Positions 4,326 through 55,188 are shown, counted from the stretch's first letter. The stretch: 64,000 nt of DNA from Candidatus Woesearchaeota archaeon (GCA_964447685.1 CAYUTI010000001.1:267064-331063); one strand, 5' to 3'. Notes: generated from the letters alone by a model not told the origin. Translations and numbers: made by a program.

Positions 4326-5753
4326 TTATCCTTTTATATTTCCTATAGGTTTCATTCTAACTACTTTTTTAGCTAGTTTTGCTTGATCTATTGAATCTAT
4401 AACATCTGTTACGTCTTTATATGAGCCAGGTGCTTCTTCTGCTAAACCTGGTAAAGAGTGACCTTTAACATAAATACCTTTTTTTTCTAGAGAGGTAACT
4501 ATTTTATCTCCACGCCAAGTTTTTTTAGCTTGAGTTCTTGACATGTTTCTTCCTGCTCCGTGAGCTGCTGAACCAAATGCTTTTTCTTCTCCTTCTTCTG
4601 TTCCTACTAGGATATATGAAGGTGTGCCCATTGTTCCACCGATGATAACTGGTTGACCTACTCCTTGGTAAACTTTTGGTAAGTCTTCTCTGTTTGGTCC
4701 GAAAGCTCTAGTTGCACCTTTTCTATGAACATAAAGTTCTTTCATTTTGTTATCTACTTTGTGTTTTTCTTTTTTTACTGTGTTATGTCCTATATTATAT
4801 AACATATCTAGTTCTGATTCTGGAAAAACTTTTTTGAAAGCTTGTCTTGTGAAGTGAACTATCATCTGTCTGTTTGCGAAAGCATAGTTTATTGCACAGT
4901 TTACTGCTGAGATATATTTTTGACCTTCATCTGATTCTATTGGTGCACAAACTAATTCTCGTTCTCTAATTGGAATATTATATTTTCTTGATGCATCTGC
5001 TAATATTTTTAAGTAATCTGTTCCTATTTGATGACCTAGTGCTCTTGAACCACAATGAATACTAACTATGATTTGGTTTTCTCTTAAATCGAAAGCTTCT
5101 GCTGTTTTTTTGTCAAAGATTTTATCTATTGCTTGGACTTCTAGGTAGTGGTTTCCTGAACCTAAAGTTCCTATTTGTTTTTTCTCTCTTCTAATTGCTA
5201 AATCGCTGACATGTTCTGGAAGTGCTCCATCTACTTTTCCGTTTTCTTCTATAAACTGTAAGTCTTCTTTTTTTCCATAACCATTATTTACTACCCATTC
5301 TGCGCCATCTACTAGAACATCATTAATTTTATTTCCTGGAAGTTCGATTTCTCCTCTAGAACCTAGGCCTGCTGGAACTGTGTTGAATAAAGTATCTACT
5401 AGTTTTTTTATTTTAGATTGAATCATTGGTAGGGTTAAGTTTGTTTTAACTGTTACAACACCACAGTTTACATCAAAACCCACTCCACCTACAGAAACTA
5501 CTCCTTCTTTTGCATCAAAAGCACCTACTCCGCCTATTGGATAACCGTAGCCCCAGTGAGCATCTGGTAATGCGATAGAAGCTTTTTGAATTCCTGGTAA
5601 ACATGCTACGTTTGATACTTGTTCCCAGACCTTTTCGTCCATCTCTTGGATTAAGGTTTTATTTGCAAAGATCTTTCCTGGGACGAGCATATCACCTGTT
5701 TTTGGAATTTCCCATTCGAAATCAGAGTGCTTTTTTAATTTCTTGATTTCCAT
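4326..5753 (-). CDS. rtcB: RNA-splicing ligase RtcB
   Basis: HWGYGYPIGGV, NCGV, GSGNHY and HGAGR metal/GTP-binding motifs; 475 aa, no intein. Confidence 0.95.
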   Translation of the reverse strand: MEIKKLKKHSDFEWEIPKTGDMLVPGKIFANKTLIQEMDEKVWEQVSNVACLPGIQKASIALPDAHWGYGYPIGGVGAFDAKEGVVSVGGVGFDVNCGVVTVKTNLTLPMIQSKIKKLVDTLFNTVPAGLGSRGEIELPGNKINDVLVDGAEWVVNNGYGKKEDLQFIEENGKVDGALPEHVSDLAIRREKKQIGTLGSGNHYLEVQAIDKIFDKKTAEAFDLRENQIIVSIHCGSRALGHQIGTDYLKILADASRKYNIPIRERELVCAPIESDEGQKYISAVNCAINYAFANRQMIVHFTRQAFKKVFPESELDMLYNIGHNTVKKEKHKVDNKMKELYVHRKGATRAFGPNREDLPKVYQGVGQPVIIGGTMGTPSYILVGTEEGEEKAFGSAAHGAGRNMSRTQAKKTWRGDKIVTSLEKKGIYVKGHSLPGLAEEAPGSYKDVTDVIDSIDQAKLAKKVVRMKPIGNIKG

Positions 5754-5872
5754 TAAGTTAAGTTAGGATTTTAGTTATAAAAAGGTTTCTATGTTCTATA
5801 TATTCTACTACCGAAAGCTTTAATAATAAATTAGGGTCATATAAATAGTACTTTAAAAAGGGGATAAAACAC

Positions 5873-46542: not shown

Positions 46543-47163
46543 ATGGATGAAATTGCAATTTTCTCTAATGAAACTAATTATTATTATAAGTTTGTTAATA
46601 CCAAAGATTGGCCTACTATTAAAATATCTGGAACACCCATGCATAGATATACAAAGCTTTCTCCTAAAGAAGATACTATCTCTAAAATTAATGAGATTAA
46701 ACCTGTTAAAGGAAAAGTTTTAGACACTTGTTGTGGATTAGGTTATACTGCAATAATGGCTGCTAAAGATGCTGAAGTGGTTTATACTTTTGAATGGGAT
46801 GATAACATGATCTATATGTGTGAACAAAATCCCTTTTCTAAGGAATTGTTTAAAGCTAAGAATATTAAATTAGTTAGAGAAGATGTAGCTGATGGTATTA
46901 AGAAATTCCAAAATGATTTCTTTGATCGGATTGTTCATGATCCACCTACATTTAAGATGTCACCTGAATTGTATTCTTCTAGATTCTATGCTGAGCTTTA
47001 TAGAGTCTTGAAGAGAGGCGGTAAGTTGTATCATTATCTTCCTGCTCCTCAAAAAACTAAAGGTAAGAATTTTTATATTAATGCGGTTAAAAGATTGAAA
47101 GAAGCAGGTTTTAAGAATGTTGAATATCATCCAGAAAGTTCTGGTGCAGTTGCTGTTAAATAA
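46543..47163 (+). CDS. SAM-dependent amino-methyltransferase (DPPY-like motif IV)
   Basis: Motif I VLDTCCGLGYT; motif IV VHDPPTF. Confidence 0.55.
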   Translation: MDEIAIFSNETNYYYKFVNTKDWPTIKISGTPMHRYTKLSPKEDTISKINEIKPVKGKVLDTCCGLGYTAIMAAKDAEVVYTFEWDDNMIYMCEQNPFSKELFKAKNIKLVREDVADGIKKFQNDFFDRIVHDPPTFKMSPELYSSRFYAELYRVLKRGGKLYHYLPAPQKTKGKNFYINAVKRLKEAGFKNVEYHPESSGAVAVK

Positions 47164-47734
47164 GTTTCTTAATTATTTCTTTTATATCTAATTTGTTTTC
47201 TTCGGCTTCTATTTTCTTTAGTTCTGATTTTGTTGCAGGATTTTTTGGTAGGAATGGGCAGGTGTGTTGGTCTTGAATTGAAATGTCAAAGGTTCCTATT
47301 TTCTTCGCTATTGTGATTGCTTCTTCTTTGTCGTAAGCTAGTAAAGGTCTTAGTACTGTCAATTTGGTTGCTTGATCTAAAACTGTTAAGTTATCTAGGG
47401 TTTGTGAAGCTACTTGACCTAGTGATTCTCCTGTTAGAATATATTTTGCTTTGTGTTTTTTTGCTAAGGCTTCTGCGATTCTGTACATCATTCTTTTGCA
47501 AAGAATGCAGGTGTATTTTGGGTTAGTATGTTTTTTTATTTCTTGTAAAGGAATTGTTTGATCTATTATAATTAGTTTTGAATCTTTGTTTATTTTGTTT
47601 TTTAGTGTTTCTATCTTTTTATTATTGTTTGATGTTGAGAAGTGTAAGAAGATTAGTTCTAGTTTGTTTTTCATTAAGTGTGAAGCTACTGGTGAGTCTA
47701 TGCCTGTTGAAAGTAAAACTATTGCTTTTTCCAT
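47156..47734 (-). CDS. ThiI-like PP-loop ATP pyrophosphatase (no THUMP domain)
   Basis: PP-loop LLSTGIDSPVAS (SGGxDS-like); CILCKRMMYRIAEALA matches the ThiI C-terminal block. Confidence 0.55.
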   Translation of the reverse strand: MEKAIVLLSTGIDSPVASHLMKNKLELIFLHFSTSNNNKKIETLKNKINKDSKLIIIDQTIPLQEIKKHTNPKYTCILCKRMMYRIAEALAKKHKAKYILTGESLGQVASQTLDNLTVLDQATKLTVLRPLLAYDKEEAITIAKKIGTFDISIQDQHTCPFLPKNPATKSELKKIEAEENKLDIKEIIKKLI

Positions 47735-48381
47735 TTTATCCTTTCTAGAGTGTTATTTTTTAGGTTTAATCTTAGAATATCTTTTTCTATATTTTGTTTG
47801 GTTAGGATTTTAATTGCTTCTGAAACTTGTAGAGATGAAGCTATACTTGCGGTTGGCGAAATAATTCCTGTCTTTTGAGGATGTAAAGGTGTTTTATTTA
47901 GTAAGTTTGAAATGTCTTCGTTGATTACTGTTTTTAGAATGATTAAGTAACCTGTTGCTGCAGTGAAGATCCAAGGAATGTTGTTTGTTTTGCAATAATC
48001 ATTAATTACTTTTCTTGCTTCTTGGTTATCTGTGCAATCTAGAATTAGGTCTGAATTGTAGAGTAATTGAGTATTAGTTTGATTTAGTTTTTCATTTTTA
48101 ATGTTTATTTTAATATTTTTATTTATTTTTTTTAAATGAGTTTTTAGAGCATTTACTTTTAGTTTTTTAACATCTTTTTCTTCATACAACCTTTGCCTAT
48201 GTAGATTTTTTAATTCTACTTTATCTTGATCAATAATTGTTAGTTCTTTTATTCCTGCTCTTGTTAAGAGTTCTGCTGAGTTTGTTCCTAAGGCACCTGC
48301 TCCAACTATAGTTACTTTAGAAGATTCTATTAGAGATTGTGCTTTTTTTCCTATTAGATTTGTTTGAGTAATGTAACGCAT
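47719..48381 (-). CDS. E1-like ThiF/MoeB/UbaA-family adenylyltransferase
   Basis: Nucleotide-binding VTIVGAGALGTNSAELLTRAGI..IIDQDKVELKNLHRQ. Confidence 0.75.
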   Translation of the reverse strand: MRYITQTNLIGKKAQSLIESSKVTIVGAGALGTNSAELLTRAGIKELTIIDQDKVELKNLHRQRLYEEKDVKKLKVNALKTHLKKINKNIKINIKNEKLNQTNTQLLYNSDLILDCTDNQEARKVINDYCKTNNIPWIFTAATGYLIILKTVINEDISNLLNKTPLHPQKTGIISPTASIASSLQVSEAIKILTKQNIEKDILRLNLKNNTLERIKWKKQ

Positions 48382-49013: not shown

Positions 49014-49135
49014 TTAATTATTGAATCTAATTTTTTATTTATTTGGGTTTATAAAGCTTTTTATTGCTGTTTTAAGAGGTTTTTAGAAGTTAGTTTCGAA
49101 AAGTTTATATATAAGTATTAACTATTGTTAACACT

Positions 49136-49489
49136 ATGCATTCATTACCTCAAGAGATCGAAGTTTGGTATGTAATCCCTGCTATTCGTAGAGAGTTTGT
49201 TAAAGAGATGAAGAGTAAAGGATTGAATCAAAGTGAGATTGCTGTTAAATTAGGTTTGACAAGAGCTGCTGTTTCGCAATATGTTTCTGGTAAGAGAGGT
49301 AGTGAAGTTAAGTTTAGTAAAGATGTTAAAGAAGAGATTTCAAAAGCTGTTGTTGGTTTGATGGAAGGTCGTGAACCAGTAAGTGCTATTCAGAGAGTTT
49401 TAAATTTTATTAAGAAGAAAGGATGTTTATGTGATATTCATAAAAAATTAGATAAAAATGTTTGTAATTGTGGAGGTTGTTGCAAATGA
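49136..49489 (+). CDS. HTH regulator with C-terminal Cys cluster, upstream of iscS
   Basis: HTH LNQSEIAVKLGLTRAAVSQYVSGKRG; C-terminal CLCD..CNCGGCC. Confidence 0.5.
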   Translation: MHSLPQEIEVWYVIPAIRREFVKEMKSKGLNQSEIAVKLGLTRAAVSQYVSGKRGSEVKFSKDVKEEISKAVVGLMEGREPVSAIQRVLNFIKKKGCLCDIHKKLDKNVCNCGGCCK

Positions 49490-50634
49490 AAATGATATAT
49501 TTAGATAATGGGGCTACTACAATGTTAGATCCAAAAGTTGTTAAGACTATGGAACCTTATTTTAATCTTAAGTATGGAAATGCTTCTTCAACTCATGCTT
49601 TAGGTCGTGAAGCTAAGATGGCTTTGAATGATGCTCGACATGTTATTGCTAAATCTATTAAAGCTAAAGATGAAGAGATTATATTTACTTCTGGTGGAAC
49701 TGAATCAAATAACTTGGCTATTAAGGGTTTGGCTTTTAATCGAGGTAATGGTCATATTATAACTACTAAGATTGAACATGATTGTGTTTTGAATTCTTGT
49801 AAGTGGTTAGAGAAGAGAGGATTTTCTGTAACCTATTTGGATGTTGATAAAGAAGGTTTTATTAGTGTTGATTCTTTAAAGAATGCTATTCGTGAAGATA
49901 CTTTTTTGTTTTCTGTGATTCATGGTAATAATGAGATTGGAACTATTCAAAATCTTAAAGAGTTAGCTAAAGTTTGTCATGATCATGGTGTGTTAATTCA
50001 TACTGATGCTTGTCAGAGTTATACTAAAACTGAATTGAATGTTAAGAAGCAAGGTTTGGATTTAGTTACTTTGAATGCTCATAAGATTCATGGGCCTAAA
50101 GGAGTTGGTGCACTTTATGTTAGACATGGTGTGAAGTTAGAACCTTTGGCACATGGTGGTGGACATGAAAGAGGTCTTCGAAATGGTACTGAGAATGTTC
50201 CTGGAATTGTCGGATTTGCAATGGCTGTTAAGTTAGCTATGAAAGGAAAACATGTTAGAAGTATGACTAAATTAAGAGATGAATTGATTTCTGGAATATT
50301 AAAAATTCCTGGAGTTAGATTGAATGGTCCTAGAAAAGAAAGATTATGTAATAATGTTAATGTTAGTTTTAAGAACATTGAGGGTGAGGCTATTGGTGGT
50401 TATTTAGATGTTAATGGTATTTGTAGTTCTACTGGTAGTGCTTGTAGTTCACATTCATTAGAAGCAAGTCATGTTTTGAAAGCTATTGGCCTTTCAGATA
50501 TTGATGCACATGGTTCCTTAAGATTGACTTTGAGTAGATTTACAACTGAAGCTGAGATTAGAAAGTGTTTAGAGGTTTTGCCTGGTATTATTAGTAAGTT
50601 GCGGAAGATGAGTCCATATAAAGGAGGTCTTTAA
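49486..50634 (+). CDS. iscS: cysteine desulfurase IscS/NifS
   Basis: SGGTESNNLAIKG; PLP-Lys HKIHGPKG; active-site SSGSACSS. Confidence 0.9.
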   Translation: MKMIYLDNGATTMLDPKVVKTMEPYFNLKYGNASSTHALGREAKMALNDARHVIAKSIKAKDEEIIFTSGGTESNNLAIKGLAFNRGNGHIITTKIEHDCVLNSCKWLEKRGFSVTYLDVDKEGFISVDSLKNAIREDTFLFSVIHGNNEIGTIQNLKELAKVCHDHGVLIHTDACQSYTKTELNVKKQGLDLVTLNAHKIHGPKGVGALYVRHGVKLEPLAHGGGHERGLRNGTENVPGIVGFAMAVKLAMKGKHVRSMTKLRDELISGILKIPGVRLNGPRKERLCNNVNVSFKNIEGEAIGGYLDVNGICSSTGSACSSHSLEASHVLKAIGLSDIDAHGSLRLTLSRFTTEAEIRKCLEVLPGIISKLRKMSPYKGGL

Positions 50635-52152
50635 ATGTATACTGAAAAAGTTATGAAATATTTTAAGCATCCTAAGAATATGGGTGTTATTAAGAATGCT
50701 GATGCAGTTGGTCAGGTTGGAAATCCTACTTGTTTATTACCTGAAGAAATTATCCATAAAAATCCTGAAATTGTGCATATTAATAAAATTTCTAAAGATG
50801 ATAAAGTTTTAACTCATACTGGAGATTATAAAAAAGTTATTGCTATTTCTTGTAATCCTTATAAAGGAGATATTATTAGATTAAAAAATAAACTTGGAAA
50901 AATTTCCTTTACCCCAGAACATTTGGTTTATGCTATTAAAGTTCCCAAACATGATAAATTTTTAAGATCGAAGAATAAGAAAATGTTAGTGCCTGCTTGG
51001 TATCATGCAGATCAATTGGAGGTAGGAGATATTTCTTTATATCCTATCCATAAAAATGAAAAAGATATTGAATCTTTGAAGATTGATATACCCGAACTTG
51101 AATGGGATTATAGAAGTAAAGAAATCCCTGATGAAATCCCCGTTAATGATGATTTATTGAGATTGTTTGGTTATTTTTTATCTGAAGGAAATGTTCAAGA
51201 CAAACCATGTAAAACATATATCTCTTTTTCATTAAATATTGCGGAAACAGATATCGTTGAAGATATTAGAAAAATATGTCAAAATCTTTTTAATTTGTCA
51301 GTTAAAGTTAAAAATTTTCCTAAAAGGAATACAGTTATTGTTTATTTGTATAATGCAAGAATCGCAAGATTTTTTAAAAAAATTATGAGTAATGGGGCTA
51401 AAAATAAAAAAATTCCTGCTTTTGTAATGTATCTTCCAAAAGAAAAACAAAAATCATTGATTTTTGGACTTTGGAAAGGGGATGGTTATGTTAATCTTGA
51501 GAGGGATGGACCGAGAGCAGGTTATTCTACAATATCTTATCAACTTGCGCAACAATTAAAAATTTTGTTAATAAGACAAAAAATTTTACCTTCTATTTAT
51601 GAAGAGGATGAAAAAAACATTAGAGGTGTTAATCATAAAAAAAATTATAGGCTTCATGTTGGTCAAAGAGAATCTTTGATTAATCTTTGTAAAATTTTGA
51701 ATATTAATTATGAACCTAAAATTTATAAATCAATTAAATCTTGGTTTGATAATAATTTTCTTTATATCCCCATTACGAAAAAAGATTCTTTTTATTATGA
51801 AGGGAATGTACATAATTTAGAGGTTATTGATTCACATTCTTTTGTTTCAGGTGCTTTTTGTTTGCATAATTGTGGTGATGTAATGAAGATTTATTTAAAA
51901 ATTGGTAAGGATTCTAAAGGTAGAGAGGTGATTAAGGATTGTAAATTTGAAACCTTGGGATGTATTGCTGCAATCGCTACAAGTTCTATTACTACTGAAT
52001 TAGCCAAAGGGAAGACTCTTGATGAAGCTATGAAAATTGATAAGAAAAAAGTAGCTGATTCTTTAGGGGGGTTGCCTGCTGCTAAATTTCATTGTTCTAT
52101 TTTAGCTGTTGATGCTTTGAAGAAGGCTATTGAGAATTATCGGAAGAAATAG
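50635..52152 (+). CDS. iscU: FeS scaffold IscU interrupted by a 380-aa intein
   Basis: Exteins MYTEK..VGQVGNPT and CGDVMKIY..LGCIAAIA..KFHCSILAVDAL rejoin as the IscU GNP(T)CGDVM core. Confidence 0.85.
   Translation: MYTEKVMKYFKHPKNMGVIKNADAVGQVGNPTCLLPEEIIHKNPEIVHINKISKDDKVLTHTGDYKKVIAISCNPYKGDIIRLKNKLGKISFTPEHLVYAIKVPKHDKFLRSKNKKMLVPAWYHADQLEVGDISLYPIHKNEKDIESLKIDIPELEWDYRSKEIPDEIPVNDDLLRLFGYFLSEGNVQDKPCKTYISFSLNIAETDIVEDIRKICQNLFNLSVKVKNFPKRNTVIVYLYNARIARFFKKIMSNGAKNKKIPAFVMYLPKEKQKSLIFGLWKGDGYVNLERDGPRAGYSTISYQLAQQLKILLIRQKILPSIYEEDEKNIRGVNHKKNYRLHVGQRESLINLCKILNINYEPKIYKSIKSWFDNNFLYIPITKKDSFYYEGNVHNLEVIDSHSFVSGAFCLHNCGDVMKIYLKIGKDSKGREVIKDCKFETLGCIAAIATSSITTELAKGKTLDEAMKIDKKKVADSLGGLPAAKFHCSILAVDALKKAIENYRKK
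50731..51870 (+). mobile_element. LAGLIDADG homing-endonuclease intein in iscU
   Basis: Starts with Cys (CLLPEE..), ends ..CLHN followed by extein Cys; two LAGLIDADG blocks (LLRLFGYFLSEGN, LIFGLWKGDGYV). Confidence 0.8.
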
Positions 52153-52215: not shown

Positions 52216-52707
52216 ATGTTGGATATTAAGATGACTGAAAACTATGAATCTGAGAGAAAAAGAAAATTTTACAAATTTTATAATGTTTCTAATACGATTT
52301 GTGGAACTCTTATACTTGCTGCTGTTGGTAGTTTATTTGCTCTTATGGGTTACGCAATGATTTATGATGATATTTTAGTAAATAAATCAAATAAAAAAGC
52401 AGGAGTTGAATCAAGAATAAAACTTAATGAAATTGTAACTATTGGAACATCTAGATTTGGATGTGTAAGATTATATGATTTTGATGGTGATAACCAAGTT
52501 GACGGATTTAGAAAATTTGATAATTCTGATTCACCAAATGTTTTAGAGTATATTGCTGAAGGTTTTACACAAGAAGATGCTGAACAAGCTAGAACAAATA
52601 TAATTGAAGGTTATACTCAAGTTATGTCTGATGATTTAAGATCTAGATTATCTGAATCTTATGTTTCAATTAAAGAAGCTAATGAAATGCTTTTAAGAGG
52701 AGAATAA
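52216..52707 (+). CDS. hypothetical protein with N-terminal TM
   Basis: 163 aa; first of three tightly spaced unknown genes. Confidence 0.45.
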   Translation: MLDIKMTENYESERKRKFYKFYNVSNTICGTLILAAVGSLFALMGYAMIYDDILVNKSNKKAGVESRIKLNEIVTIGTSRFGCVRLYDFDGDNQVDGFRKFDNSDSPNVLEYIAEGFTQEDAEQARTNIIEGYTQVMSDDLRSRLSESYVSIKEANEMLLRGE

Positions 52708-52708
52708 A

Positions 52709-53260
52709 ATGGCATTAGAAGAAAAAAACCCTTCTATCTTTGATAGATTACTTGATAAATCTAGAAGAATGAATTTATTGGAAGGTTTACCAACAGATCC
52801 TAAGTTCTCAAAACCATTTAAAGGTTTAGATGGTAAATGGTATTCTTCTTTACAAGCTTCTGCTGAAGCTGATAATGCGTTTATGATTGCTAAATTAGAA
52901 TCTATTAAACTTATAGATTATGAAACTTCTAATCCACAAAAGCCATTTTTAGAAAAGAAAACAAAAGAAAATATTACTTATTTTAATCATAAATCATTAG
53001 ATCCTGTAGCATCATTTAGAAAAGAGTTATTCCCTGAGGATTTTGCTCGAGTACCAAAACAATCTTCTCAAATATTAGATTATGTAACAGCAAACCGGTC
53101 TTTAGAACTTGCAAGACAAGCAAATGAGTTAAGATTACAAGCAAGTTGTGCTTTTTTAAAAGGAGAAGCTGAGACTTTAGAGGCTAAAGCTGAAAAACTT
53201 GAAAGACAAAGGACTAAATTAATTTTAGGAATGTCTGAAGATACACCTTTTAATTATTAA
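52709..53260 (+). CDS. hypothetical protein
   Basis: 183 aa; 1-nt gap to the upstream gene. Confidence 0.45.
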   Translation: MALEEKNPSIFDRLLDKSRRMNLLEGLPTDPKFSKPFKGLDGKWYSSLQASAEADNAFMIAKLESIKLIDYETSNPQKPFLEKKTKENITYFNHKSLDPVASFRKELFPEDFARVPKQSSQILDYVTANRSLELARQANELRLQASCAFLKGEAETLEAKAEKLERQRTKLILGMSEDTPFNY

Positions 53261-53261
53261 A

Positions 53262-53828
53262 ATGACACAATACCCAGTAGTAAAAACTAAAAAAGAAATT
53301 TGGGTTTTTAACCCTAAGAGTAAACGTAGTTTAAAATTAGCGAGTTTGGACTCTACATTTTTTGATATGTATGTTTCTAATAGTGGTATTTTTCATGCTG
53401 TGGAATCTTTTAATTATAATCAAAAATCTGTAGAGGGGATAACTGTAAGGTTCCCTGCTAATTATGTAACTATTTTAGATTCTATTTCTGGTGGAAGTGT
53501 TAAAACTGTATATCCAGAAGGGCAATTAGAATTACCTTTTGAAGATAGACTTGTAGATCTTGAGTTCTCTTTTTTTAGAGATGGAAATAGTTTGTGTTAT
53601 CGACTTAATGGTAATGAAGCTACTTTGTTTGATAAATTAAATGGTCATGTTAACCCTAAATGCGAGGTAGTTGTAGAAGGGAATAAGATATATGTTGATG
53701 GTAGAAAAGCAGCTACTACTCAATTTGATATTTCTCATTGGGGCTTAATTAATGAGAGAAGTTTTTCTAAGTTAGCTAAAAGAAAAAATGAAAACCTTTA
53801 TAGTAAAATTAAATCTTTACATTCCTAA
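53262..53828 (+). CDS. hypothetical protein
   Basis: 188 aa; 1-nt gap to the upstream gene. Confidence 0.45.
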   Translation: MTQYPVVKTKKEIWVFNPKSKRSLKLASLDSTFFDMYVSNSGIFHAVESFNYNQKSVEGITVRFPANYVTILDSISGGSVKTVYPEGQLELPFEDRLVDLEFSFFRDGNSLCYRLNGNEATLFDKLNGHVNPKCEVVVEGNKIYVDGRKAATTQFDISHWGLINERSFSKLAKRKNENLYSKIKSLHS

Positions 53829-54267: not shown

Positions 54268-55188
54268 TTACTTTAATTCTTTTAAAATATTACAAGCTTG
54301 ACAAATGTCTTGAGAAGAAGGTTCTTTACATTTTTTACAGGTTTTAATCTTAGAATCATTAGTTTTGTAATGGTTTTTAAGTAATGGAAGTATTTCTAGG
54401 AAAGAATTAATAACTGCATGTTTAGATCCTGGATGTTTTTGATTGTAATCATTTAATAAATTTCTTACATCATCTCTTAAAGCTTCTTCTGAATAGGGAC
54501 ATTCTGTGAATTCATGTAATAAGTTGTTTAAGAAAGCATAGGTCATTATTTCTTTTTCTGTTAGTAGATAGAAAGGTTTTATTCTTGGGATGAATTTTTT
54601 ATCTTTAATTACCCCTGTTAATGGTCCTAGTCTTGCTTGGGTTTCCATAGAGTTTCTGAATTGATTCATAAGAATAGATTGAGCTTCATCATCTAAGTTG
54701 TGGCCTGTTGCTATTTTATTTACTTTTAATTTTCTAGCATATTTATTTAGAAGGTATTTTCTTAAAACCCCGCAGATTGTACAAGGGTGTTGAGGAAGTT
54801 TTTTCTTTCTTGCTATTTTAATCATTTCATCTAGAGTTAAGCCAAATTCTTTTTTGAATGAAACTATAGTTAGATTTTTACTTAAAGTTTTAAGATGTTG
54901 AATGTTTAAGTCTCTGTAAGGTTTTATTCCTTCATCAATTACTATAATCTCTAATTCTAAATTTCTGGTATTTTCTGAGAGTTTACTTAAGAAAAATAGT
55001 AAAGCATTAGAATCTTTTCCGCCTGAGCAGGCTACAGCTATCCTATCTTTTTTATCTAAGAGATTGTAAGCTTTAATTGTTCTTTTAGCTTTTTTCTCGA
55101 AGTATCTTATGAAGCAAGCCTTACATAATTGTACTTCTGAATTTGGTAATCTAATTACTGGGGCTGTTTTACATAATTTACACGGCAT
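54268..55188 (-). CDS. ncsA: tRNA 2-thiolation PP-loop ATPase (NcsA/Ncs6/TtcA family)
   Basis: PP-loop ACSGGKDS; N- and C-terminal CxxC..CxxC zinc fingers (CKLCK..CKAC; CKKCK..CQAC). Confidence 0.7.
   Translation of the reverse strand: MPCKLCKTAPVIRLPNSEVQLCKACFIRYFEKKAKRTIKAYNLLDKKDRIAVACSGGKDSNALLFFLSKLSENTRNLELEIIVIDEGIKPYRDLNIQHLKTLSKNLTIVSFKKEFGLTLDEMIKIARKKKLPQHPCTICGVLRKYLLNKYARKLKVNKIATGHNLDDEAQSILMNQFRNSMETQARLGPLTGVIKDKKFIPRIKPFYLLTEKEIMTYAFLNNLLHEFTECPYSEEALRDDVRNLLNDYNQKHPGSKHAVINSFLEILPLLKNHYKTNDSKIKTCKKCKEPSSQDICQACNILKELK

What the first reader, a model, noticed from the sequence alone, without database searches (positions are those of the whole stretch)
49136..52152. IscU scaffold carrying a LAGLIDADG intein, downstream of iscS and a Cys-cluster HTH regulator
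The IscU exteins (..GNPT | CGDVMKIY..) are split by a 380-aa element beginning with Cys, ending with ..HN + Cys, and containing two LAGLIDADG blocks. This is a full-length homing intein inserted at the FeS-ligand cysteine of IscU. Inteins in FeS assembly proteins are known for SufB but are uncommon in IscU. The small HTH protein upstream ends in CLCD..CNCGGCC, suggesting FeS-responsive autoregulation of the operon.
Basis: partly seen in the sequence, partly recalled or inferred. Interest (0 to 1): 0.55.

Follow-up and report, generated by a model that had tools for sequence, protein, structure and literature searches.

The report
Intein-split IscU scaffold with its regulator
The gene for the iron-sulfur scaffold protein IscU is interrupted, exactly at one of its cluster-binding cysteines, by a complete self-splicing intein with a homing endonuclease, and the small regulator gene in front of the operon belongs to an undescribed family that heads Fe-S assembly operons and has a conserved operator at its own promoter.

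Summary
ORF 50635-52152 (505 aa) is an IscU/NifU_N scaffold interrupted between Thr32 and the first cluster-ligand Cys by a 380-aa class-1 intein (nt 50731-51870). All splicing residues and both LAGLIDADG motifs are intact. The predicted fold matches solved intein endonucleases (TliVMA, PI-SceI, PI-PkoII, PI-PfuI). With the intein removed, the extein aligns without gaps to A. fulgidus IscU.

The allele is not rare. It occurs in at least 477 protein clusters and 112 species-level genomes. These include DPANN, Thermoplasmata and Asgard archaea and genuine bacterial contigs (Omnitrophota, Elusimicrobia). The site is always the same, the length is 372-384 aa, and the catalytic residues are almost always intact. 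Intein-free alleles of similar extein divergence also exist. I found no paper describing an IscU intein.

The upstream HTH protein belongs to an unnamed family with a conserved C-x2-H...C-x2-C motif. In loci chosen by HTH similarity alone, 57 of 74 have the gene directly in front of iscS, sufB or sufC. A palindrome, TTAAC-nATn-GTTAA, lies between the TATA box and the start codon in 40 of 79 promoters, including this one (49118-49131). Autoregulation is therefore well supported. Fe-S sensing remains an inference.

Verdict: an ordinary kind of element in a new host protein, plus a new candidate Fe-S regulator family.

The parts
49103..49110 (+). TATA-box-like element (TTTATATA) of the operon promoter. 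It lies about 26 nt upstream of the ATG, which implies a leaderless or near-leaderless transcript.
   Evidence: Read from the sequence. A TTTATAWA element sits at the same relative position in most of the 79 related promoters. Promoter function is inferred.
49118..49131 (.). Putative operator: the 14-bp palindrome TTAACTATTGTTAA, between the TATA box and the start codon of the HTH gene.
   Evidence: It is the only exact TTAAC-N4-GTTAA in the 64-kb window. The same palindrome is exact in 40 of 79 upstream regions of HTH homologues, and 56 of 79 match with at most 1 mismatch. Sites cluster at -15..-21 or -45..-48. Only about 18 other exact sites occur in 584 kb of the same loci. The spacer is conserved as nATn.
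49136..49489 (+). HTH regulator, 117 aa. It has an N-terminal PQEIEVWYxIPAIRRE helix, an XRE-type HTH (about residues 32-49) and a C-terminal C99-x2-H102-x9-C112-x2-C115 motif (nt 49430-49480).
   Evidence: Pfam HTH_3. Family alignment. AF2 model with pLDDT 90, six helices and no significant PDB neighbour. Gene-order association with iscS/sufB/sufC.
49486..50634 (+). Cysteine desulfurase IscS/NifS type (MisS), 382 aa. Its ATG overlaps the HTH stop codon, and GGAGGT lies 9 nt upstream.
   Evidence: Aminotran_5 2.7e-82. NF002806 IscS subfamily 308 bits (cut-off 304). TIGR03402 NifS 497 bits (cut-off 531).
50635..52152 (+). IscU (MisU) precursor ORF, 505 codons plus stop. The ATG abuts the iscS stop codon, and GGAGGT lies 7 nt upstream.
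50635..50730 (+). N-extein, residues 1-32, ending ...VGNPT.
50731..51870 (+). Intein, 380 aa (residues 33-412).
- Block A: C33, nt 50731-50757.
- Block B: T93xxH96, nt 50896-50934.
- LAGLIDADG motif 1: E184, nt 51154-51195.
- LAGLIDADG motif 2: D283, nt 51454-51492.
- Block F: nt 51802-51849.
- Block G: ...HN412, nt 51850-51870.
   Evidence: GC is 26% against 32-34% in the exteins.
51871..52152 (+). C-extein, residues 413-505, plus stop codon. It starts with the +1 Cys of the CGD motif (first cluster ligand plus Asp). It also holds C443 and H486-C487, the other IscU ligands.

Best explanation
This is a three-gene hth-iscS-iscU operon of a low-GC (31%) archaeon whose closest relatives for these genes are DPANN (Pace-/Woese-/Nanoarchaeota) MAGs. 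It corresponds to a minimal two-component ISC-type ('MIS', MisS/MisU) Fe-S assembly system.

Intein. The scaffold gene carries a canonical class-1 intein with a double-motif LAGLIDADG homing endonuclease. The insertion lies between residue 32 and the first cluster-ligand cysteine.
- Shown: the anatomy, the insertion point, conservation of all catalytic residues, the fold, and the existence of intein-free alleles.
- Inferred: the 505-aa precursor splices itself. The steps would be an N-S shift at Cys33, transesterification to Cys413, and cyclisation of Asn412. The products would be a 125-aa IscU, whose ligand Cys is the former +1 nucleophile, and a free 44-kDa endonuclease.
- Inferred: the endonuclease cuts intein-less iscU at the GNPx|CGD-coding site and spreads by homing. 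This would explain the same element at the same site in many archaeal phyla and in true bacteria, next to empty-site relatives.

Regulator. The HTH protein most likely binds as a dimer to the TTAAC-nATn-GTTAA palindrome between the TATA box and the transcription start, and represses its own operon.
- Supported by comparative data: the operator and the gene-order link to Fe-S assembly genes.
- Inferred by analogy with IscR and SufR: the C-x2-H...C-x2-C motif holds an Fe-S cluster (or another metal) that reports Fe-S status.
For: Intein
- Pfam NifU_N plus LAGLIDADG_3, and NCBIfam NifU/IscU models split around the insert.
- C33, T93, H96, H411, N412 and C413 are invariant in 120 of 120 database homologues. 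E184 and D283 are each present in 119 of 120.
- In 80 genome loci, 73 of 77 full-length copies have every catalytic residue, and intein length is 372-384 aa.
- The AF2 model has pLDDT 89. Foldseek top hits are TliVMA intein 7QSU (E 1e-22, TM 0.77 normalised to the target), PI-SceI, PI-PkoII and PI-PfuI. The extein part hits IscU 7C8O and 4EB5.
- The spliced extein aligns end to end, with no gap at the junction, to A. fulgidus IscU 4EB5_C (2e-41).

Distribution
- 477 protein clusters at E<1e-5; the best 120 all have NifU_N plus LAGLIDADG.
- 112 species-representative genomes.
- Bacterial contigs verified by bacterial pheT, RNase Y, XseA, MnmA and GGDEF genes.
- Intein-free IscU of 52-65% extein identity occurs in operons with the same HTH. 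The junction DNA matches at 28-37 of 48 nt.
- Intein and extein identities correlate weakly (r=0.18-0.20), against split-half ceilings of 0.61 and 0.86.

Regulator
- Conserved C99/H102/C112/C115.
- Gene order: 38 IscS, 15 SufB and 4 SufC directly downstream in 74 informative loci chosen by HTH similarity alone.
- Operator statistics.
- Operon coupling by overlapping or abutting stop and start codons.
Against: - Nothing here is experimental. Splicing, endonuclease activity, DNA binding and metal content are all inferred.
- Block F carries an invariant Asn (N394) where, from my own knowledge, many class-1 inteins have Asp. The effect is unknown.
- The evidence for horizontal movement is soft. 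Intein-vs-IscS identity correlation (0.39) equals extein-vs-IscS (0.39), so long vertical co-inheritance with saturation is not excluded.
- No IscU intein was found on viral contigs.
- Only 17 of 80 intein-bearing loci carry this HTH family. 13-14 carry an unrelated ArsR-type HTH instead. Regulator and intein are therefore independent features that happen to coincide here.
- A C-x2-H...C-x2-C motif is equally typical of a structural zinc site.
Confidence: 0.85

Rival explanations
1. The intein has been co-opted as a conditional, post-translational switch. The +1 nucleophile is itself a metal/cluster ligand of IscU. Binding of Zn, Fe or a nascent cluster at the precursor's active site, or oxidation of Cys1/Cys+1, would block splicing and tune the supply of mature scaffold. 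Selection for this role, rather than homing, would keep the element intact.
For: - Insertion is exactly at the ligand Cys.
- Length constancy is unusual (372-384 aa), and the whole intein is conserved. In the 120 closest homologues the endonuclease domain is as conserved as the extein (64% vs 60%).
- From my own knowledge there is precedent: the M. tuberculosis SufB intein is stress-sensitive (Topilina et al. 2015, listed in the references of PMC4760082), and Zn inhibits several inteins through Cys+1.
Against: - Across the broader 75 loci the intein is less conserved than the extein (47% vs 60%).
- No conserved extra Cys could partner C1/C+1; C409 is Cys in only 34 of 81.
- Intein-free alleles work in comparable organisms.
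- Retention of both endonuclease acidic residues is what ongoing homing predicts, and a pure splicing switch would not need them.
Confidence: 0.12
2. The intein is a vertically inherited, still-splicing relic whose endonuclease no longer homes. Its wide distribution reflects ancient insertion plus transfer of whole iscU genes.
For: - Intein-vs-IscS identity correlation equals extein-vs-IscS (0.39 each).
- A few copies have lost an acidic residue (L031 D->H, L067 D->G, L060 E->V).
- No viral carrier was found.
Against: - 73 of 77 full-length copies keep both catalytic acidic residues and the full length. No mini-intein derivative appeared among the top hits. Degeneration is expected once homing stops.
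- Occupied and empty sites are interleaved among lineages of equal extein divergence.
- The element is present in both domains.
Confidence: 0.2
3. The HTH protein is an autoregulator, but its Cys3His motif is a structural zinc site. The signal it senses, if any, is not an Fe-S cluster.
For: - C-x2-H...C-x2-C spacing is typical of zinc knuckles/ribbons.
- The C-terminal 15 residues are the least confident part of the model (pLDDT 58-79).
- H102 is replaced by Cys in some members and by Ala/Gly in a few.
Against: - The family is found almost only in front of Fe-S assembly operons of two different kinds, iscSU and sufBC.
- An unrelated ArsR-type HTH with a Cys-rich tail takes the same position in other lineages. 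This looks like convergence on a Cys-based sensor.
- From my own knowledge, IscR also uses 3 Cys plus 1 His.
Confidence: 0.4
4. The central 380 codons are an independent gene or an assembly artefact, not part of iscU.
For: None found.
Against: - It is a single ORF without stops.
- The same in-frame architecture occurs in more than 100 independent assemblies.
- The NifU_N model is split exactly around the insert.
Confidence: 0.01

Closest known systems
Class-1 inteins with LAGLIDADG homing endonucleases (PI-SceI/VMA1, TliVMA, PI-PkoII, PI-PfuI)
   Same: - Cys1, block B TxxH, terminal His-Asn and Cys+1.
- HINT domain plus double-motif LAGLIDADG domain.
- Insertion at the most conserved active-site motif of the host protein.
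- Structural match at E 1e-13 to 1e-22.
   Different: - The host protein, IscU/MisU, is not among intein hosts described in the papers I could search.
- Sequence identity to solved inteins is only 12-18%.
- Block F has an invariant Asn.
- The nearest sequence relatives outside IscU (35-40% identity) sit in 2-oxoacid:ferredoxin oxidoreductase beta subunits, UDP-glucose dehydrogenase, a pyridine-nucleotide disulphide oxidoreductase (Pyr_redox_2), radical-SAM enzymes and methyltransferases.
SufB intein of Mycobacterium and other SufB inteins
   Same: It is an intein inside an Fe-S cluster assembly scaffold. A SufB LAGLIDADG intein also occurs downstream of the same HTH family in locus L129.
   Different: - The scaffold family is different (SufB vs IscU) and so is the insertion site.
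- Here the +1 nucleophile is itself a cluster ligand.
- Stress-sensitive splicing is documented for Mtu SufB (own knowledge) and is untested here.
IscU/MisU of archaea (A. fulgidus 4EB5, Methanothrix 7C8M) and the MIS minimal system
   Same: - The spliced product is 125 aa.
- It is 52-58% identical over the structurally aligned stretch.
- The Cys-Asp-Cys-His-Cys ligand set is present.
- The partner IscS is encoded immediately upstream. The two-gene system is as described for MIS (PMC13066941).
   Different: It is encoded as an intein-containing precursor, and it is preceded by a dedicated HTH regulator.
IscR (Rrf2 family) and SufR, the Fe-S-cluster-sensing repressors of isc/suf operons
   Same: - It is the first gene of an Fe-S assembly operon.
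- A palindromic site overlaps its own promoter.
- It has a Cys/His ligand set; from my own knowledge IscR uses 3 Cys plus 1 His.
   Different: - The fold and family are unrelated. It has an XRE-type HTH_3 with a unique N-terminal PQEIEVWY helix, no Rrf2 or SufR match and no significant PDB neighbour.
- The operator sequence TTAAC-nATn-GTTAA is its own.

Membership tests
Intein (class 1, HINT) | N-terminal nucleophile (Cys/Ser) as first residue (block A) | tested here: met
   C33. Cys in 120 of 120 database homologues and in all 79 genome-locus copies that cover the position.
Intein (class 1, HINT) | Block B T-x-x-H | tested here: met
   T93-P-E-H96. Invariant in 120 of 120.
Intein (class 1, HINT) | C-terminal His-Asn followed by a Cys/Ser/Thr +1 extein residue (block G) | tested here: met
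   H411-N412|C413. Invariant in 120 of 120.
Intein (class 1, HINT) | HINT fold with N- and C-terminal splicing halves flanking the endonuclease | tested here: met
   AF2 pLDDT 89. Foldseek hits 7QSU at 1e-22, 1EF0, 2CW7 and 1DQ3.
Intein (class 1, HINT) | In-frame insertion whose removal restores a contiguous, alignable host protein | tested here: met
   The spliced extein aligns to 4EB5_C at 2e-41 with no gap at the junction.
Intein (class 1, HINT) | Actual protein splicing | not testable with these tools
   Requires expression of the precursor.
LAGLIDADG homing endonuclease (double-motif) | Two LAGLIDADG motifs, each ending in an acidic catalytic residue followed by Gly | tested here: met
   LFGYFLSE184-G and FGLWKGD283-G. 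E in 119 of 120 and D in 119 of 120. Pfam LAGLIDADG_3 2.2e-14.
LAGLIDADG homing endonuclease (double-motif) | alpha-beta-beta-alpha-beta-beta-alpha fold | tested here: met
   Foldseek hits to I-DmoI (TM 0.75 normalised to the target), I-Tsp061I and the PI-SceI endonuclease domain.
LAGLIDADG homing endonuclease (double-motif) | Existence of intein-less target alleles (empty sites) | tested here: met
   16 intein-free IscU genes with GxPxCGD intact; 13 of them are 52-65% identical in the extein.
LAGLIDADG homing endonuclease (double-motif) | Site-specific cleavage of the empty site | not testable with these tools
   Biochemical assay needed.
IscU / NifU_N scaffold (MisU) | NifU_N domain with the three ligand Cys plus Asp and His | tested here: met
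   PF01592 1.3e-37. C413-G-D415, C443 and H486-C487 are conserved.
IscU / NifU_N scaffold (MisU) | Adjacent partner cysteine desulfurase | tested here: met
   iscS at 49486-50634, with its stop codon abutting the iscU start. IscS is upstream on the same strand in 70 of 80 related loci.
MIS minimal system (MisS/MisU only) | No HscA/HscB/Fdx/IscA partners with the pair | tested here: inconclusive
   None is adjacent, and no SufB/SufC or second IscU lies in the 64-kb window. The rest of the genome was not available.
IscR (Rrf2) regulators | Rrf2-type winged helix domain | tested here: not met
   No Rrf2 hit in Pfam or NCBIfam; only HTH_3. It is a functional analogue at most.
XRE/HTH_3 regulators | HTH_3 domain above the Pfam threshold | tested here: met
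   27 bits against a cut-off of 23. The best PDB profile hit is a lambda-repressor-like protein, 1.7e-5.

The most novel reading that the evidence does not exclude
Fe-S assembly in this lineage is under two stacked feedback loops, both built on cysteines of the machinery itself.
- Transcriptional: a new family of Cys3His HTH repressors that sense Fe-S status at a TTAAC-nATn-GTTAA operator.
- Post-translational: splicing of the IscU precursor is gated by metal or cluster occupancy, or by oxidation, of the +1 ligand cysteine.
On this reading the intein is kept by selection as a regulator rather than only as a selfish element.
Probability: 0.1. Interest if true: 0.8.

Novelty: new member of a known kind. 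Interest (0 to 1): 0.5.

Why it matters
Intein. Inteins are concentrated in replication and repair proteins. This one sits in the core Fe-S scaffold, with its splice-junction nucleophile doubling as a cluster ligand. That gives a natural system for testing whether splicing responds to metal or redox state. The element is widespread: more than 100 species in both domains. It has already caused misannotation: an IscU precursor is labelled '2-oxoglutarate ferredoxin oxidoreductase beta', apparently through intein similarity.

Regulator. The regulator may matter more. It is a compact, structurally unprecedented HTH family that heads both iscSU-type and sufBC-type operons in DPANN archaea and some other uncultured lineages. 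Its operator is clearly defined. It could be the missing counterpart of IscR/SufR for the minimal MIS/SMS systems, whose regulation is essentially unstudied.

Tried and rejected
- Sequence search of the intein against PDB gave only one weak hit, PI-PkoII at 4.7e-7. Structure prediction was needed.
- I tested independent intein mobility by correlating pairwise identities. Intein-extein r is low (about 0.2). However, intein-IscS and extein-IscS are equal (0.39), so I treat the result as suggestive only.
- I looked for a conserved extra cysteine that could form a redox trap with Cys1/Cys+1. None exists; C409 is Cys in 34 of 81.
- The viral-contig scan found only distant inteins (at most 30% identity) in other genes, and no IscU intein.
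- No other intein of this type lies in the window. No RNA family other than three tRNAs is present.
- The operator pattern has no second exact site in the window. The four 1-mismatch sites are at chance level, so no regulon can be defined from the window.
- PDB profile and fold searches for the HTH gave only generic HTH matches.
- Literature searches returned no paper on an IscU/NifU intein. The terms were intein with IscU, NifU or DPANN, plus the main text of the 2015/2016 intein survey. That survey's supplements were not held.
Full report
**1. What is there**

Between 49136 and 52152 three genes lie head to tail on the + strand.
- The first encodes a 117-aa protein with an XRE-type helix-turn-helix (Pfam HTH_3, 27 bits, cut-off 23).
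- The second is a class-V aminotransferase of the IscS/NifS cysteine desulfurase type. Aminotran_5 scores 2.7e-82. NCBIfam NF002806 (IscS subfamily) is above its cut-off and TIGR03402 (NifS) is just below.
- Its likely ATG at 49486 overlaps the HTH stop codon (ATGA) and is preceded by GGAGGT.
- The third ORF, 50635-52152, starts directly after the iscS stop codon and is also preceded by GGAGGT. It runs for 505 codons without a stop.

**2. The intein**

The 505-aa product has three parts:
- a 32-aa N-terminal IscU segment ending ...VGNPT;
- a 380-aa insert, CLLPEE...FCLHN;
- a 93-aa C-terminal IscU segment beginning CGDVMK.

Pfam finds NifU_N split into two stretches, plus LAGLIDADG_3. NCBIfam finds NifU/IscU models and intein-containing models of other proteins.

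All defining intein blocks are present:
- Cys1 (C33);
- block B, T93-x-x-H96;
- two LAGLIDADG motifs ending in E184-G and D283-G;
- block F, VHNLEV..HSF;
- block G, H411-N412, followed by C413.

With the insert removed, the 125-aa product aligns end to end with A. fulgidus IscU (4EB5_C, 2e-41) and has no gap at the junction. The +1 Cys falls on Cys33 of the GNPVCGD motif. From established knowledge of IscU, this is the first cluster-ligand cysteine (E. coli Cys37), followed by the conserved Asp.

An AlphaFold model built on 22 homologues has mean pLDDT 89.
- Its best PDB matches are intein endonucleases: TliVMA 7QSU (E 1e-22, TM 0.77 normalised to the target), PI-SceI, PI-PkoII and PI-PfuI.
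- The extein part matches IscU structures.
- The central domain matches I-DmoI-type LAGLIDADG enzymes.

**3. How common it is**

A search of 5.8 billion proteins gave 477 clusters at E<1e-5. The best 120 are all 484-562 aa and carry both NifU_N and LAGLIDADG domains.
- In these 120, C33, T93, H96, H411, N412 and C413 are invariant. E184 and D283 are each present in 119.
- The endonuclease domain (64% identity) is at least as conserved as the extein (60%).

A scan of one genome per GTDB species found 112 genomes with the element.
- Record titles name Pace-, Woese- and Nanoarchaeota, Diapherotrites/Iainarchaeota, Aenigm-, Micr-, Alti- and Undinarchaeota, Thermoplasmata, Methanomethylicota, Bathyarchaeia and two Asgard MAGs.
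- They also name Omnitrophota, WOR-1, Elusimicrobia, Planctomycetia and Patescibacteria.
- MAG labels can be wrong, so I checked two bacterial loci. L070 carries bacterial-type pheT, RNase Y and xseA. L078 carries mnmA, nadA and a GGDEF cyclase. The element is thus present in both domains.

In the 80 loci fetched, the intein is always at the same site and is 372-384 aa long. All eight key residues are intact in 73 of 77 full-length copies.

At 50% clustering the IscU inteins form roughly a dozen clusters among 5553 related inteins. The next relatives (35-40% identity) sit in 2-oxoacid:ferredoxin oxidoreductase beta subunits, UDP-glucose dehydrogenase, a pyridine-nucleotide disulphide oxidoreductase (Pyr_redox_2), radical-SAM enzymes and methyltransferases. 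This probably explains why one IscU precursor (KKT26549.1) is annotated as '2-oxoglutarate ferredoxin oxidoreductase subunit beta'.

**4. Mobile or fixed?**

Intein-free IscU genes exist in operons headed by the same HTH family. Sixteen keep the GxPxCGD motif intact, and 13 of them are 52-65% identical to the window's extein. That is the same divergence as the intein-bearing homologues. Occupied and empty sites are therefore interleaved.

Pairwise intein and extein identities correlate weakly (r=0.18-0.20), against split-half ceilings of 0.61 (extein) and 0.86 (intein). However, both correlate equally with the neighbouring IscS (0.39). I regard independent movement as likely but not shown.

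Three observations fit continuing homing better than a decaying relic:
- near-universal retention of both endonuclease acidic residues;
- absence of mini-intein derivatives among the hits;
- lower GC of the intein (26% against 32-34% in the exteins).

No IscU intein was found on viral contigs.

**5. The regulator**

In an alignment of 113 homologues only C99, H102 (His in 87, Cys in 19), C112 and C115 are conserved. The motif is C-x2-H-x8-12-C-x2-C. The other three cysteines are specific to this protein. The N-terminus has a near-invariant PQEIEVWYxIPAIRRE.

The family has no name in Pfam or NCBIfam beyond HTH_3. Its confident model (pLDDT 90, six helices) has no significant PDB neighbour.

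I fetched 80 metagenome loci selected only by similarity to this protein. In the 74 with enough downstream sequence:

| Gene directly downstream, same strand | Loci |
|---|---|
| iscS | 38 |
| sufB | 15 |
| sufC | 4 |
| Not adjacent, but one of these within 4 kb | 9 |
| None of these | 8 |

The family is thus tied to Fe-S assembly operons of two different kinds.

Lining up the 79 upstream regions revealed a palindrome, TTAAC-nATn-GTTAA.
- It is exact in 40 regions and within one mismatch in 56.
- It lies at -15 to -21, between a TTTATAWA box and the ATG, or at -45 to -48, just upstream of that box.
- Only about 18 other exact sites occur in 584 kb of the same loci.
- In the window the single exact site is 49118-49131. 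It is 7 nt after TTTATATA (49103-49110) and 4 nt before the ATG.

A site overlapping the transcription start of the regulator's own operon argues for autorepression. That the Cys3His motif holds an Fe-S cluster is an inference. It rests on analogy with IscR and SufR, and on a second, unrelated ArsR-type HTH with a Cys-rich tail. That protein takes the same position in 13-14 of the 80 intein-bearing loci.

**6. Context**

The window comes from a low-GC (31%) archaeon.
- The closest homologues of the finding's genes are Pace-, Woese- and Nanoarchaeota MAGs.
- Neighbours include pyruvoyl-dependent arginine decarboxylase, RtcB, RtcA, an XPD/Rad3 helicase and archaeal-style TATA promoters.
- Sulfur-relay genes surround the operon: a ThiI-type PP-loop protein and a ThiF-type E1 diverge from it. 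A tRNA 2-thiolation protein (NcsA/TtuA) lies 2 kb downstream.
- No SufB/SufC or second IscU is in the window.
- The pair fits the minimal 'MIS' (MisS/MisU) system described for archaea (PMC13066941).

**7. Comparison with what is known, and novelty**

The element is a textbook class-1 LAGLIDADG intein. What is new is the host protein and the site.

I found no paper that mentions an intein in IscU or NifU. This covers full-text searches, the main text of the 2015/2016 prokaryotic intein survey and a 2026 review of Fe-S biogenesis. Subscription literature and intein databases could not be searched. The sequences themselves are public, mostly unannotated or misannotated.

The regulator family and its operator appear to be undescribed. 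They are functionally analogous to IscR/SufR but are not members of those families.

**8. Verdict**

- Observation: confirmed.
- Interpretation: supported, with Fe-S sensing by the regulator still untested.
- Novelty: a new member of a known kind (intein), accompanied by a candidate new regulator family.
- Interest: moderate, 0.5. The intein is ordinary in mechanism but well placed for testing conditional splicing. The regulator-operator pair is a concrete, testable lead for how minimal Fe-S systems are controlled.

Noticed in passing
L025:2085-2381 and 13 further loci (e.g. L013, L016, L020, L021, L027): An unrelated ArsR-type HTH (Pfam HTH_5) with a Cys-rich C-terminal tail (e.g. ...KQCCKCCAYCK) sits upstream of iscS, mostly directly. 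It is found in 13-14 of the 80 intein-bearing loci, in the place the XRE-type HTH occupies in the window.
   Followed up: partly
L025:3534-5985: In several Pacearchaeota-type loci, extra genes separate iscS and iscU. In L025 these are a 732-aa fusion of a ferredoxin-thioredoxin-reductase beta-like domain with a Prismane/CO-dehydrogenase-family domain, then an 82-aa DUF1858 protein. Many other loci show a 0.8-2.4 kb gap between iscS and iscU.
   Followed up: partly
L129:2010-5712: The same HTH family is followed by sufC and by a sufB that itself carries a LAGLIDADG intein (859 aa; SUFBD_core + Intein_splicing + LAGLIDADG_3).
   Followed up: partly
L128:125-1744: A 539-aa single ORF fuses IscS (Aminotran_5) and IscU (NifU_N) in one polypeptide.
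   Followed up: no
window 47156-48381 (-) and 54268-55188 (-): Sulfur-relay genes flank the operon. These are a ThiI-type PP-loop protein (192 aa, PP-loop domain only), a ThiF/MoeB-type E1 (220 aa) and a tRNA 2-thiolation protein NcsA/TtuA (306 aa).
   Followed up: no
window 51811-51813 (residue N394, intein block F): Block F reads V-x-N-L-E-V, with Asn invariant in all roughly 200 homologues. From my own knowledge, many class-1 inteins have Asp at this position.
   Followed up: no
protein P0095 (KKT26549.1): A 508-aa IscU-intein precursor is annotated in GenBank as '2-oxoglutarate ferredoxin oxidoreductase subunit beta'. The cause is probably that the closest non-IscU inteins sit in that enzyme.
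   Followed up: yes
window 4326-5762 (-): The RtcB gene in the window is intein-free, although its best NCBIfam model is the intein-containing RtcB family. Only the extein parts match.
   Followed up: no
window 52216-53828 (+): Three consecutive ORFs (163, 183 and 188 aa) directly downstream of iscU have no Pfam match. The first has a predicted hydrophobic segment.
   Followed up: no
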